Source of the DNA: a virus
Lineage: Duplodnaviria; Heunggongvirae; Uroviricota; Caudoviricetes
Direction: 5' to 3' (one strand)
Length of the DNA: 44,072 bases
Virus record (IMG/VR): IMGVR_UViG_3300045988_043987
Shown here: in pieces, positions 40,144 to 44,072 of the stretch
How positions within the stretch are numbered: position 1 is the first letter of the stretch
How the letters are laid out: each line of letters opens with the position of its first letter
The notes under the pieces: model-generated
Told to the model about the DNA's origin: nothing
Seen by the model: the letters and a program-made list of their open reading frames with translations, nothing else
Databases searched by the model: none
Translations under genes and position numbers: made by a program

Positions 40144-40176
40144 TACGCTGCTACACAGCAGCGTATCATTTTTCTC
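40144..40176 (+). terminator. intrinsic terminator
   Basis: TACGCTGC-N6-GCAGCGTA followed by T-rich tract. Confidence 0.6.
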
Positions 40177-40473: not shown

Positions 40474-40614
40474 ATGATTCCCGCAGCAACTTGGATGGAA
40501 GGGTATAGGTCCTGGACTTTAGGCGAACTGGTTGATGCTTACGAGATACTAGGCAGCACTTCGGTGTGTAACGGCGACACGAAAGTGATAACAATGGGGT
40601 TTGATGATGAGTAA
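40474..40614 (+). CDS. hypothetical small protein (46 aa)
   Basis: GAGAGGAG ribosome-binding site; below track cutoff. Confidence 0.4.
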   Translation: MIPAATWMEGYRSWTLGELVDAYEILGSTSVCNGDTKVITMGFDDE

Positions 40615-41275
40615 CAAAAACGAAGTATTCGAGTACCTGATTGACCAGCTACGGCAGCAGCTACCTGTCGTAGATGTAATGGGTGAGATTGAACGGTGGA
40701 GTATCGACCGTAGTATTGCTGGCCGCGGTAACTATACCGACGAGGAAAACGTCATAATCGATGCTTACATCGGCCTGGAGCACAACACATACAAGCAACA
40801 GTGCGAAGACCTGGCACAAGAGGTACAGTCACTCAAGAATCAGTTACGTGATGCGTCTGCACAGATTAAGGAGTTGCAGGAAGACAACATTAGGAAATCC
40901 GAGCACATATCACATATGACCGGGCAATCGTCCGCATATCGTAATGACGCGTTGCGCTTTCAAGCGCAAGTTGATGACCTGGTAAAACGACTGGCTACCG
41001 CTACCGGTGACGTGGAGGCGTACAAACTTATCCGCAAAGGCGGCTACATTTCTGGTGGTCAGCGATACGTAGTAGGTGAACACGGACCTGAGCAATCTGG
41101 TTGCCGCAAAGAAGATACACAAGAATGCAACCATACCTGGAGATTCGTTAATGGTAAGGCTCCCGCCGTTTGTATTAATTGCGGCGTGACTAAATCCAGC
41201 GAGTGTGAACACGAATGGCAATTTTACGGAGTAGGGTTTCCGTGTATGTGCATTAAATGCGGGCTGAAGAAATGA
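40604..41275 (+). CDS. hypothetical protein with coiled-coil and C-terminal Cys-rich zinc-ribbon-like region
   Basis: four CxxC-type pairs near C-terminus. Confidence 0.55.
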   Translation: MMSNKNEVFEYLIDQLRQQLPVVDVMGEIERWSIDRSIAGRGNYTDEENVIIDAYIGLEHNTYKQQCEDLAQEVQSLKNQLRDASAQIKELQEDNIRKSEHISHMTGQSSAYRNDALRFQAQVDDLVKRLATATGDVEAYKLIRKGGYISGGQRYVVGEHGPEQSGCRKEDTQECNHTWRFVNGKAPAVCINCGVTKSSECEHEWQFYGVGFPCMCIKCGLKK

Positions 41276-41684: not shown

Positions 41685-41878
41685 TGGTACAGAGGTACGA
41701 GGCAAACGCGTGGGGTCTGCCGGAGCCTGAGATGGCTGAGTACGCGTACGGCGATTACGTAGAATATGACGCTTATCTGAAACTCGAAGCAAAGTTACGT
41801 GAATTCGCTGAACAGGTAATGTACGCACCTTGTTCGAAAGTTACAGAAGAAATGGCCCGCGAGATTCTCGGAATATGA
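41681..41878 (+). CDS. hypothetical protein (paralog 2 of tandem pair)
   Basis: MMVQRY...YDAYLKLEA. Confidence 0.5.
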   Translation: MMVQRYEANAWGLPEPEMAEYAYGDYVEYDAYLKLEAKLREFAEQVMYAPCSKVTEEMAREILGI

Positions 41879-42015
41879 GCCTCGCAACTGACATCCTGAA
41901 ACGAAGCGGCCTCGCTCCGCTGTCTCCGAGAGCGAAGACCCGGATACACAAGCGCCGCCGTAACGCGCTGTTCCCGGAGATACAAGAACGCCGTAAAGCT
42001 ATCCGCGCCTGTTGA
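41875..42015 (+). CDS. hypothetical arginine-rich small protein (46 aa)
   Basis: ATGA-coupled ATG in frame with track ORF 41830-42015. Confidence 0.4.
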   Translation: MSLATDILKRSGLAPLSPRAKTRIHKRRRNALFPEIQERRKAIRAC

Positions 42016-42033
42016 TTCCAGAACGGGAAGGCC

Positions 42034-42168
42034 GTGAATCTTGGTGAGTTTAAAACACAGGAACGCGCAGCTATCGCTAATCGACTATTTAACTACTGGA
42101 AATCGCTGGGGTACGAGGATATTCCGACGAAACCTCAGAGACGACAATACATCTGGAGACACAAATGA
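42034..42168 (+). CDS. hypothetical small protein (44 aa, GTG start)
   Basis: gap-filling ORF whose stop overlaps next ATG. Confidence 0.25.
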   Translation: MNLGEFKTQERAAIANRLFNYWKSLGYEDIPTKPQRRQYIWRHK

Positions 42169-42605
42169 CGACTATCGCGTTCGACGGAAAGACAATGGCA
42201 TGTGACACGCGTGTTGTGTGCGGGAGTAACTGTTACAACACAGACACAAAGATATACGAGAATGATTTTGCTGTTATCGGGGTGGCTGGCGATGCCGGAG
42301 TCGGAACTATGCTTATCGATTGTCCGTATATCCTCCAGGCCAGACACTATGACTTCGATTTCGAAGCCCTGGTGTTCGTGAAAGATACAGAAAAAGTGTA
42401 TAAAGTCGCGTTTTATAAATCGTGGGATTGTGCACTAAGTTCGGTTATCCCTGTTGCCGATAGCTTTGCCGCCGTTGGTTCCGGTTCTCCTTATGCACTG
42501 GCGGCCATGGAATGTGGATATTCAGCACATGGAGGTGTGGCCGTTGCCTCGAAGTTCGACACTAACACGGGCGGCAAGATTATTACCAAACAACTATTAG
42601 GATAA
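42165..42605 (+). CDS. HslV/proteasome-beta-like Ntn-hydrolase peptidase (putative)
   Basis: N-terminal MTTIAF (Thr after Met) and GSGSPYALAA motif, as in HslV TTIV... and GSGGPYAQAA. Confidence 0.55.
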   Translation: MTTIAFDGKTMACDTRVVCGSNCYNTDTKIYENDFAVIGVAGDAGVGTMLIDCPYILQARHYDFDFEALVFVKDTEKVYKVAFYKSWDCALSSVIPVADSFAAVGSGSPYALAAMECGYSAHGGVAVASKFDTNTGGKIITKQLLG

Positions 42606-42664
42606 ATCCTACCCGTGGTATCCTCCAGTTACTGCATACTTAATACGCACCTGGAGGATTCATC

Positions 42665-42973
42665 TTGGATAAATTTACCGAAACAGTGACAGGCTGGCTT
42701 CTCGCTGCCGCACTCGCCGGAGGGGTCATCGGACTACGACAACATAAGTCCGTTATTTCTGGCCCTATCGACGGCTTCTGCTTTATCGCAACCGGCTTCA
42801 CTTGCGCCGTATTTGGTGCGCCTCTTGCCGCCCAATGGTTTGGCATTACCGGGGAGCGTGAAATCGCTGGCCTCGGATTTATCATCGCTGTCCTCTGGAT
42901 GCCCATCTATTCCCGCCTTTCTGGCATCGTCGCCGGAGAATACATCGCACGTCGAGGAGGCTCGGATGAATGA
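42665..42973 (+). CDS. holin (putative, 3 TM helices)
   Basis: three hydrophobic helices, charged C-terminus; TTG start with GGAGGA; upstream of endolysin. Confidence 0.55.
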   Translation: MDKFTETVTGWLLAAALAGGVIGLRQHKSVISGPIDGFCFIATGFTCAVFGAPLAAQWFGITGEREIAGLGFIIAVLWMPIYSRLSGIVAGEYIARRGGSDE

Positions 42974-43238
42974 GCTATTCTGGTTCGGCGGTATGCTGGC
43001 AATCGGTGGCGCATCGCTGTTTAATGTGTATCATCCCAGCGTTGACGACGGGTTATTTGGTCGGGTGCTCTATATCCTGACCGCTATTGTCTGCGCCGCC
43101 GGGTGTATCCACCTGTTACAGGGCAGCATGTCACCTACGTTGCCCGAGACGTTAATCACATTAGTCGCGCTGCGTCAGATTCGTCAGGCGTGGCTGTCGT
43201 ACGGAGGACATAAGCGTGTCTCGAAATATTTCAGATAA
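42966..43238 (+). CDS. second lysis-cassette membrane protein (2 TM helices; holin/antiholin-like)
   Basis: ATG at 42966 with GAGGAGG; overlaps holin stop and endolysin start. Confidence 0.45.
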   Translation: MNELFWFGGMLAIGGASLFNVYHPSVDDGLFGRVLYILTAIVCAAGCIHLLQGSMSPTLPETLITLVALRQIRQAWLSYGGHKRVSKYFR

Positions 43239-43719
43239 TGGATTGCAGTTCAAAAAAGCGTGGGAAAAGTTTCGCGGAACTGCGTACAAAGCAACAAAGA
43301 ACGAAAAATACTGGACTATAGGCTGGGGCCATACCGGGCCTGATGTGTACGAAGGGCAGAAGATTACCGAAGGCCAGGGACTTCTGTTACTGAACCGTGA
43401 TATGCAGTGGGCGGTGAAAGCAGTCGATGACGTCGCACATCCCTCCCTGACCCAAGCCCAGTTTGATGCCGTCGTTGACCTGGTGTTCAACGCAGGGACT
43501 GGCGTGATTGCGGCTACGACAGGGACGGGTAAGGCACTACAGCGGGGAGACATCCCTACCCTACGGCACAAGATGAGTCAGTTCATTAACCAGCGCAACC
43601 CTAAGACCGGTAAACTTGAACCTGTTCTGGGCCTGCGCCGTCGCGTAGCGGGTCGTCTGGCGCTGTTCGACGGTAAACCGTGGCGGGAGGCAGAGGCTAT
43701 CGGGAGGGCTGTTAAATGA
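43216..43719 (+). CDS. endolysin, T4-lysozyme-like (GH24)
   Basis: AYKATKNEKYWTIGWGH lysozyme signature with upstream catalytic Glu; GTG start with GGAGGA. Confidence 0.8.
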   Translation: MSRNISDNGLQFKKAWEKFRGTAYKATKNEKYWTIGWGHTGPDVYEGQKITEGQGLLLLNRDMQWAVKAVDDVAHPSLTQAQFDAVVDLVFNAGTGVIAATTGTGKALQRGDIPTLRHKMSQFINQRNPKTGKLEPVLGLRRRVAGRLALFDGKPWREAEAIGRAVK

Positions 43720-43933
43720 TGGACGAATACGAAGGTGTTTAGTATTCTGGTTAGGCCAAGTTTTTCGTATTTGCTAATGGAGGCCGATATGGCACTGCAA
43801 GAGTTCACCAACCCTGTTAAATCGCGCGACGATATTGACGAGTCTGTCGGTTACGGCGAAGGTTGACACCTAAGACTAATCCGACGATACTTAAATCACC
43901 TCCTGTTCCATCCCTCTACTCTCCAGTTTTATC

Positions 43934-43962
43934 CCGGCCCTGACCTAGCCGGGATTTTTTTT
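43934..43962 (+). terminator. intrinsic terminator
   Basis: CCCGGC-N9-GCCGGG followed by T8. Confidence 0.7.
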
Positions 43963-44072
43963 ATCTATTTTCTATAATGACTAGTTGACTATTATCTACG
44001 ACCCTACTATATTTACTCCATCGACAACGAGAACGGAGTAGAGAGAAATGATGACTAAGATTAAGCATACCG
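43954..44072. repeat. terminal direct repeat, right copy (identical to 1-119)
   Basis: exact 119-bp repetition of the window start. Confidence 0.9.

What the first reader, a model, noticed from the sequence alone, without database searches (positions are those of the whole stretch)
42165..42605. HslV/proteasome-like Ntn-hydrolase peptidase in the early gene cluster
The 146-aa protein begins MTTIAF..., placing Thr directly after the initiator Met as in HslV (TTIV...), and contains GSGSPYALAA, matching the HslV/proteasome-beta GSGGPYAQAA motif. It is shorter than bacterial HslV (about 176 aa) and there is no HslU-like ATPase in the genome, so it might pair with host HslU or act alone.
Basis: partly seen in the sequence, partly recalled or inferred. 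Interest (0 to 1): 0.6.

Follow-up and report, generated by a model that had tools for sequence, protein, structure and literature searches.

The report
Phage proteasome-like peptidase gene (PPH family)
The gene is real and encodes a small proteasome/HslV-like threonine peptidase of an already described phage family (PPH), carried by about a third of related E. coli phages as an optional gene just before the lysis genes; what it does during infection has never been tested.

Summary
ORF 42165-42605 (+) encodes a 146-aa protein starting MTTIAF and containing GSGSPYALAA. The window is a Kagunavirus (Guernseyvirinae) E. coli siphophage.

The protein is a proteasome-like Ntn hydrolase:
- AlphaFold2 model: pLDDT 93.5.
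- hhalign: 97.4% to E. coli HslV.
- In 146 diverse relatives the catalytic set is nearly invariant: Thr right after Met1, Asp14, Lys29, Gly-Ser-Gly 105-107, Asp132, Thr/Ser135.
- dN/dS is 0.02-0.17.

It is not HslV proper. The NCBIfam HslV model scores 14 bits against a cut-off of 158. Helix H2, which forms part of the HslU docking pocket, is missing, and no Clp/HslU-type ATPase is encoded.

[quoted passage not shown] It also matches PHROG 1040 "peptidase HslV family", and GenBank relatives are already annotated this way.

New here: the gene is a clean presence/absence cassette between a small ORF and the holin gene, present in roughly 30% of Kagunavirus genomes, so it is dispensable.

The most likely mechanism is an unfoldase-independent Thr1 peptidase. 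Its substrate is unknown. The kind is already known, and interest is low to moderate.

The parts
42165..42605 (+). PPH-family proteasome-like Thr-Ntn hydrolase gene (146 aa). Predicted catalytic residues: Thr2 (N-terminal after Met removal), Asp14, Lys29, Gly39/Gly42, Ser106, Asp132, Thr135.
42155..42158 (+). GGAG ribosome-binding site, 6 nt before the ATG. The ATG (42165-42167) overlaps the TGA (42166-42168) of the upstream ORF, which suggests translational coupling.
   Evidence: sequence; the same arrangement is seen in phiEc3 and Snoke
41874..42168 (+). Upstream small ORF (phrog_9632; 98 aa in phiEc3). It forms the left border of the cassette site. In this window it is interrupted by an in-frame TGA at 42013-42015.
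42620..42659 (+). Conserved hairpin (ATCCTCCAG ... CTGGAGGAT) in the 59-nt spacer between the PPH stop and the holin TTG start. Its 3' arm contains the holin Shine-Dalgarno GGAGGA. It forms the right border of the cassette site.
42665..42973 (+). Holin (phrog_2359), immediately downstream.
42966..43238 (+). Second holin/antiholin (phrog_2508).
43216..43719 (+). Endolysin (phrog_7, P22-type lysozyme).
43932..43962 (+). Intrinsic terminator (TCCCGGC-loop-GCCGGGA followed by T8). It closes the unit that contains PPH and the lysis genes.
   Evidence: terminators are annotated at the same place in Snoke and Schulenburg
40144..40165 (+). Terminator-like hairpin upstream. It is the probable left end of the transcription unit holding PPH.
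   Evidence: Schulenburg has an annotated terminator at the equivalent site

Best explanation

Proposed mechanism:
- Host methionine aminopeptidase removes Met1. This is inferred from the fact that E. coli HslV starts with the same MTTI.
- That exposes Thr2 as the N-terminal nucleophile.
- Lys29 and Asp14 correspond to Lys33 and Asp17. The Gly39-x-x-Gly42 loop forms the oxyanion hole. Ser106, Asp132 and Thr135 correspond to Ser129, Asp166 and Ser169. Together these complete a proteasome-type active site.
- By analogy with its closest structural neighbours, the subunit probably assembles into rings through the retained H3/H4 helices. It would then act in the infected cytoplasm as a self-compartmentalised peptidase on peptides or unfolded or specific proteins.
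- It probably does this without a dedicated unfoldase. The phage encodes none, and helix H2 and most of H1, which build part of the HslU tail pocket in HslV, are missing.

In Kagunavirus the gene is an optional cassette inserted between a small ORF and the holin gene, in the same predicted transcription unit as the lysis genes. It is dispensable for lytic growth and is therefore a fitness or accessory function.

Shown here: gene reality, fold, conservation of catalytic residues, absence of a phage ATPase, and cassette polymorphism. Inferred: Met removal, oligomerisation, peptidase activity, HslU independence. The substrate is unknown.
For: - Sequence profile: the family profile hits beta5 (1e-12), HslV (4e-12) and BPH (6.5e-11) chains in the PDB. 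hhalign to E. coli K-12 HslV gives 97.4%, E=1.1e-11. In that alignment MTTI aligns to MTTI, Asp14 to Asp17, Lys29 to Lys33 and Ser106 to Ser124.
- Conservation in 146 diverse representatives: T2 142T+3S, D14 143D+3E, K29 146/146, G42 144, G105/S106/G107 146/135(+7T)/146, D132 140, T135 104T+27S.
- Purifying selection: dN/dS 0.02-0.17.
- PPH features from Fuchs et al. 2021 (PMC8665760): about 140 aa, no propeptide, H2 missing, phage-borne. The model has H1 at residues 44-51 only, no H2, and H3/H4 present.
- HslU pocket: the pocket residues F54, F57, A79, K80 and Q114 are listed in PMC6429459. HslV residues about 62-95, which include A79 and K80, have no counterpart in the alignment.
- No unfoldase: no Clp/HslU-type AAA+ in the window and none near homologues in four other phage groups.
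- Cassette: Schulenburg lacks exactly this ORF between identical flanks. In a 60-record sample, 41 sites were empty and about 18 occupied. About 37 carriers compare with about 120 Kagunavirus-type holin records.
Against: - No biochemical or genetic data exist for any PPH member (literature searches).
- The Pfam Proteasome score of the window protein is just below the gathering threshold (21.9 vs 22.4).
- HslV alone is a poor peptidase and needs allosteric activation by HslU (PMC6429459). A stand-alone homologue might therefore also need an activator.
- The host does have HslU, and the F57-equivalent position remains hydrophobic, so some HslU contact is not excluded.
- Two alignments disagree on whether Gly39 or Gly42 is the Gly47 equivalent.
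Confidence: 0.6

Rival explanations
1. It replaces or competes with host HslV and docks onto host HslU (ClpY). This would form a hybrid ATP-dependent protease that redirects or blocks HslUV proteolysis during infection.
For: It is homologous to HslV, with an identical MTTI N-terminus and the GSG-PYA-AA motif. E. coli encodes HslU. HslV-type peptidases normally need HslU for activation (PMC6429459). Some GenBank records call the protein 'ATP-dependent protease'.
Against: H2 is absent and H1 is only 8 residues long. These helices carry the pocket residues F54/F57 and A79/K80. In the alignment F54 corresponds to Thr48, a variable position. HslV Lys28 corresponds to Tyr24, which is also not conserved. 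HslV residues 62-95 have no counterpart. The HslV equivalog model scores far below its cut-off. The structurally closest protein, BPH, is described as not regulated by an unfoldase (PMC8665760).
Confidence: 0.2
2. It is a sequence-specific processing enzyme or transpeptidase, like the proteasome homologue connectase. It would act on one defined phage or host protein rather than as a general peptidase.
For: The proteasome-like family includes a ligase with the same catalytic set (PMC8665760). The gene is small and stand-alone and has no gating partner. Some family members carry extra C-terminal segments that could bind a partner.
Confidence: 0.12
3. It serves phage morphogenesis or lysis directly, either as a prohead (scaffold/capsid) protease or as a regulator of holin/antiholin timing.
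For: In Kagunavirus and Jerseyvirus it always sits directly upstream of holin-holin-endolysin. In Sinorhizobium phage phiM5 a homologue lies between the large terminase and the portal. No prohead protease is annotated in Kagunavirus.
Against: About 70% of Kagunavirus genomes, including K1G, K1H and three BASEL phages, lack the gene. They keep the same flanks and holin gene at the site, and Schulenburg, which lacks it, has the full head and lysis gene set. In other phage groups the neighbours are unrelated accessory genes.
Confidence: 0.05
4. It is a catalytically dead remnant or decoy, for example a poison subunit for host HslV rings.
For: Its function is untested, and it is dispensable.
Against: All catalytic positions are nearly invariant across very divergent members, and selection is strongly purifying.
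Confidence: 0.03

Closest known systems
[quoted passage not shown]
   Same: About 140 aa with no propeptide. Thr1/Asp17/Lys33 and the oxyanion Gly are present. Helix H2 is missing, and there is no C-terminal S12/H5. It is encoded by tailed phages of Proteobacteria and groups with HslV and BPH.
   Different: Nothing essential differs. The Guernseyvirinae branch has two short insertions (residues 59-64 and 82-91) relative to most members. The fixed insertion site before the lysis cassette and the roughly 30% carriage were not mentioned in the passages of that paper that I read.
BPH (betaproteobacterial proteasome homologue; PDB 5OVS/5OVT)
   Different: BPH is about 185-200 aa. It has both H1 and H2 and a long acidic pore loop, and it is chromosomal.
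HslV (ClpQ), the peptidase of the HslUV ATP-dependent protease
   Different: The protein is 30 residues shorter. H2 and most of H1, which form part of the HslU pocket, are missing. There is no adjacent hslU. The NCBIfam HslV models score 13-14 bits against cut-offs of 137-158. It keeps an Asp166/Ser169-type D-x-x-T motif as in 20S beta subunits, where E. coli HslV has a different sequence.
20S proteasome beta subunits (Pfam PF00227, MEROPS T1)
   Same: Same fold and the full catalytic set, including Ser129, Asp166 and Ser169 equivalents. The family profile hits beta5 at E=1e-12.
   Different: There is no propeptide, no alpha-ring partner and no H2/H5. It is about 60 residues shorter.

Membership tests
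Proteasome-like Ntn hydrolases (PF00227 / MEROPS T1 superfamily) | Alpha-beta-beta-alpha Ntn sandwich superimposable on beta subunits and HslV | tested here: met
Proteasome-like Ntn hydrolases (PF00227 / MEROPS T1 superfamily) | Thr (or Ser) nucleophile at the mature N-terminus | tested here: met
   Thr2 follows Met1. In 146 representatives position 2 is 142 T and 3 S, and nearly all alignments start at residue 1. Removal of Met itself was not testable.
Proteasome-like Ntn hydrolases (PF00227 / MEROPS T1 superfamily) | Asp17, Lys33, oxyanion Gly47, Ser129, Asp166 and Ser169 equivalents | tested here: met
   D14, K29 (146/146), G39/G42, S106, D132 and T135. The register of the Gly47 equivalent is ambiguous between G39 and G42.
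Proteasome-like Ntn hydrolases (PF00227 / MEROPS T1 superfamily) | Reaches the Pfam gathering score | tested here: inconclusive
   21.9 bits against 22.4 for the window protein. 77 of 139 family members hit PF00227, best E=3e-11.
PPH (Fuchs et al. 2021) | About 140 residues, no propeptide, no C-terminal S12/H5 | tested here: met
   146 aa. The Met-Thr start is conserved. The last element of the model is strand 139-143.
PPH (Fuchs et al. 2021) | Second helix (H2) absent | tested here: met
   The model has H1 at 44-51 followed by a loop at 52-65 and then strands, with no second helix before H3. HslV residues about 62-95 are unaligned.
PPH (Fuchs et al. 2021) | Encoded by tailed phages or prophage regions of Proteobacteria; group I, nearest to BPH and HslV | tested here: met
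   The window is a Kagunavirus. Relatives occur in Salmonella, Caulobacter, Sinorhizobium, Pseudomonas and other phages. BPH and HslV are the top structural hits.
PPH (Fuchs et al. 2021) | Clusters with the authors' representative WP_042125023.1 | not testable with these tools
   The representative's sequence is not in the paper text or its supplement.
HslV (ClpQ) proper | Reaches the curated HslV equivalog model cut-off | tested here: not met
   TIGR03692 scores 14.4 bits against 157.75. NF003964 scores 13.5 against 137.
HslV (ClpQ) proper | Partner HslU ATPase encoded alongside | tested here: not met
   No Clp/HslU-type AAA+ in the window or in the fully annotated relative Schulenburg.
HslV (ClpQ) proper | H1/H2 helices forming the HslU C-tail pocket (F54, F57, A79, K80, Q114) | tested here: not met
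   H2 is absent. F54 corresponds to T48, and A79/K80 have no counterpart.
HslV (ClpQ) proper | Dodecamer of two hexameric rings | not testable with these tools
   Only single-chain prediction was available.
Connectase | H1/H2 deleted, two-helix insertion between S3 and S4, close structural similarity | tested here: not met

The most novel reading that the evidence does not exclude
PPH is a minimal threonine protease, or ligase, that needs no unfoldase and adopts a quaternary structure unlike HslV or the proteasome because H2 is missing. The phage would use it against one specific host target, for example a defence or stress-response protein. Under this reading its carriage in only about 30% of Kagunavirus genomes reflects host-strain-specific selection.
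Probability: 0.2. Interest if true: 0.65.

Novelty: already known. Interest (0 to 1): 0.27.

Why it matters
PPH was described in 2021 as the first genuinely viral member of the proteasome family, and I found no experimental study of any member. This window adds no new kind of protein, but the Kagunavirus situation offers a convenient experimental entry point. Closely related phages differ by the clean presence or absence of this one ORF at a fixed site, in a well-studied E. coli host whose hslU and hslV can be deleted. Showing what a phage gains from a 146-residue proteasome homologue, and whether it works without an unfoldase, would bear on how minimal a self-compartmentalising protease can be. 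It would also bear on how phages manipulate host proteostasis.

Tried and rejected
- The search for related loci with the 139-sequence alignment failed because no stretch was conserved enough. I sampled contexts by tblastn and annotated records instead.
- The single-sequence PDB search gave only weak hits, E about 0.1. The family profile was needed.
- The PADLOC defence-system library gave no hit.
- Pfam found nothing in the C-terminal extensions of longer family members. The CxxCxGxG repeats seen in P0244 therefore remain an unverified visual impression.
- The supplement of the PPH paper holds no sequences, so I could not compare directly with the authors' representative.
- Model coordinates are not exposed. 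Distances from Thr2 to Lys29 and Asp14 were not measured, and the Gly39/Gly42 register was left open.
- One metagenomic look-up (P0124) returned only contigs shorter than 2 kb.
- The prohead-protease, lysis-regulator and dead-decoy ideas were considered and given low weight. The reasons are the presence/absence polymorphism and the conserved catalytic residues.
- I did not attempt a genome-wide search for genes that co-vary with PPH among Kagunavirus genomes.

Full report
**1. Observation**

The ORF at 42165-42605 on the + strand is present as described. It has an ATG start and encodes 146 aa, beginning MTTIAFDGKTMACDTR and containing AAVGSGSPYALAAM. A GGAG ribosome-binding site lies 6 nt upstream. 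The ATG overlaps the TGA of the preceding ORF (ATGA).

The ORF is a real gene under purifying selection:
- dN/dS is 0.02 against phage phiEc3 (dS 0.55) and 0.17 against phage Snoke.
- It matches PHROG 1040 'peptidase HslV family' at E=1.5e-34.
- An exhaustive HMMER search of 1.84 billion representatives returned 1529 cluster representatives at E<=1e-3. Almost all are 135-155 aa and align from residue 1.

**2. Genomic setting**

The window is a nearly complete Kagunavirus genome (Guernseyvirinae, E. coli siphophage). It is 85-91% identical to many GenBank phages.

The gene is the last of a run of small + strand ORFs. It is followed by a 59-nt spacer and then by holin (42665-42973), a second holin/antiholin (42966-43238) and endolysin (43216-43719). 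A strong intrinsic terminator follows the endolysin at 43932-43962. A terminator-like hairpin lies at 40144-40165. Curated relatives annotate terminators at the equivalent sites. The gene therefore probably shares a transcription unit with the lysis cassette, and 'early' is not established.

The same order (PPH, holin, holin, endolysin) is found in Jerseyvirus, where the protein is about 60% identical.

No Clp/HslU-type AAA+ protein is encoded. The 20 largest ORFs are terminase, portal, head and tail proteins, an SNF2 helicase, DNA polymerase A, an AAA_25 primase-helicase, a PD-(D/E)XK nuclease, a C5-methylase, an SSB and others. The fully annotated relative Schulenburg has none either.

**3. 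What the protein is**

Structure:
- An AlphaFold2 model built on 139 diverse sequences is confident: pLDDT 93.5, pTM 0.88.
- Connectase and other Ntn hydrolases score 9 or less.
- Foldseek agrees.

Sequence:
- The family profile hits PDB chains of beta5 (1e-12), HslV (4e-12) and BPH (6.5e-11).
- hhalign against E. coli K-12 HslV gives 97.4% probability, E=1.1e-11.

Conservation among 146 representatives, mostly 30-42% identical to the query:

| Position | Counts |
|---|---|
| Met1 | 140 |
| Thr2 | 142 T + 3 S |
| Asp14 | 143 D + 3 E |
| Lys29 | 146/146 |
| Gly39 | 105 G + 29 A |
| Gly42 | 144 |
| Gly105-Ser106-Gly107 | 146 / 135 S + 7 T / 146 |
| Asp132 | 140 |
| Thr135 | 104 T + 27 S |
| Gly136 | 135 |

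The alignments equate these with Thr1, Asp17, Lys33, the Gly47 loop, Ser129, Asp166, Ser169 and Gly170 of the proteasome. The two alignments differ on whether Gly39 or Gly42 is the Gly47 equivalent. Both glycines are present in this protein.

**4. What it is not**

It is not HslV proper:
- The curated HslV equivalog models score 13-14 bits against cut-offs of 137-158.
- The model has only a short H1 (residues 44-51) and no H2. H3 (108-116) and H4 (121-131) are retained.
- In HslV, the pocket that receives the HslU C-terminal tail is lined by F54 and F57 (H1), A79 and K80 (H2) and Q114 (PMC6429459).
- In the alignment F54 corresponds to Thr48, a variable position, and F57 to Ile51. HslV residues about 62-95 have no counterpart.

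Pairing with host HslU is therefore not excluded, but it has lost part of its structural basis.

**5. Comparison with what is known**

[quoted passage not shown] Their description:
- about 140 residues;
- found in Caudovirales and in prophage regions;
- group I, with HslV and BPH;
- no propeptide;
- lacks H2, and lacks the C-terminal S12/H5.
They called it the first truly viral member of the family.

Every one of these features was tested here and met.

GenBank already labels close relatives 'peptidase HslV family', 'protease' or 'putative ATP-dependent protease'. One of these is 97% identical to the window protein. Another carries an HHpred note of 99.66% to H. influenzae HslV.

BFVD holds 41 viral structure clusters with this fold at E<=1e-3. 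tblastn with a distant member finds the family in 407 phage records from many genera.

I found no experimental study of any PPH member.

The kind is therefore already known. The window adds another member.

**6. What this analysis adds**

(a) The gene is a discrete, optional cassette.
- Phage Schulenburg lacks exactly this ORF. The upstream 98-aa ORF and the hairpin-plus-holin flank are otherwise conserved.
- In an evenly spaced sample of 60 of the 119 records matching the empty-site junction, 41 have the empty site. These include K1G, K1H, K1ind1/3 and BASEL phages Bas70, Bas72 and Bas74. About 18 are occupied.
- This agrees with about 37 carriers among about 120 Kagunavirus-type holin records.
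- The gene is therefore dispensable for lytic growth. That argues against an essential role in head maturation or lysis.

(b) In other phage groups the homologue sits in unrelated contexts. Examples are between terminase and portal in phiM5, and among accessory genes in tuntematon, CcrMagneto and Nican01. No recurrent partner and no ATPase is seen.

(c) The Guernseyvirinae branch has two short insertions (residues 59-64 and 82-91) relative to most members.

**7. Mechanism**

The most likely mechanism, at about 0.6 overall, runs as follows:
- Met1 is removed by host methionine aminopeptidase, as for E. coli HslV with the same MTTI start. This step rests on established knowledge and was not tested here.
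- Thr2 acts as the N-terminal nucleophile, with Lys29 and Asp14.
- The subunit oligomerises through H3/H4, like its structural neighbours.
- It cleaves peptides or unfolded or specific proteins in the infected cell without a dedicated unfoldase.

Rivals:
- Recruitment of host HslU: 0.2.
- A connectase-like specific processing or ligase role: 0.12.
- A morphogenesis or lysis role: 0.05.
- A dead decoy: 0.03.

The substrate and the benefit to the phage remain unknown.

**8. Verdict**

The protein is proteasome/HslV-like, specifically PPH, and not HslV. Novelty: already known. Interest is low to moderate (0.27). The family is uncharacterised experimentally, and the natural presence/absence variants make it readily testable. 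A specialist would not be surprised by the gene itself.

Noticed in passing
window 42620-42659: A 9-bp perfect hairpin (ATCCTCCAG / CTGGAGGAT, 22-nt loop) lies between the PPH stop and the holin TTG start at 42665. Its 3' arm contains the holin Shine-Dalgarno GGAGGA. The surrounding 81 nt (42600-42680) fold at -22.1 kcal/mol, z = -3.1. The sequence is invariant in four Kagunavirus genomes, including one without PPH. It may control holin translation.
   Followed up: partly
L002 (Salmonella phage vB_SenS-Ent3) 4474-4510: At the same position Jerseyvirus has a different hairpin (ATCTCCGAA...TTCGGAGAT) followed by a T-run. Again the holin GGAG lies in the 3' arm. The structure is conserved while the sequence has changed, and here it looks like a terminator or attenuator between PPH and the holin.
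   Followed up: no
window 42013-42015 (ORFs 41830-42015 and 42034-42168): The small ORF upstream of PPH (phrog_9632; one 98-aa ORF in phiEc3, Snoke and Schulenburg) is split here by an in-frame TGA where phiEc3 has GGA. It could be a nonsense mutation, a sequencing error, or a case of read-through or re-initiation at the GTG at 42034.
   Followed up: partly
window 43932-43962 and 43985-44013: A clean intrinsic terminator (TCCCGGC-loop-GCCGGGA followed by T8) lies after the endolysin. It is followed by a promoter-like TTGACT-17-TATATT and a new gene starting near 44050.
   Followed up: no
window 40601-41275: A 224-aa ORF of unknown function (phrog_6094) has a central coiled-coil-like segment. 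Its C-terminal part holds two repeats of a Cys/His-rich motif (C-x-H-x-W-x-F ... C-x-x-C-G) that look like zinc ribbons.
   Followed up: no
proteins P0244, P0264, P0147, P0219; L007 2890-3582 (phage tuntematon): Some PPH-family members carry C-terminal extensions of 50-90 residues. P0244 shows several CxxCxGxG-like repeats reminiscent of DnaJ-type zinc fingers. Pfam found no domain in any of the extensions.
   Followed up: partly
L003 851-1668, L004 670-1487, L005 66-883: In three short metagenomic contigs a distant PPH homologue (P0124, 138 aa) is followed by the same 134-aa ORF, which overlaps its stop codon by 4 nt. This may be a conserved gene pair. The second ORF has no Pfam hit.
   Followed up: no
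L006 (Sinorhizobium phage phiM5) 2090-2611: A PPH-like 'putative peptidase' lies between the large terminase and the portal, a position where head-maturation proteases often sit. The record does not flag it as detected in the virion proteome.
   Followed up: no
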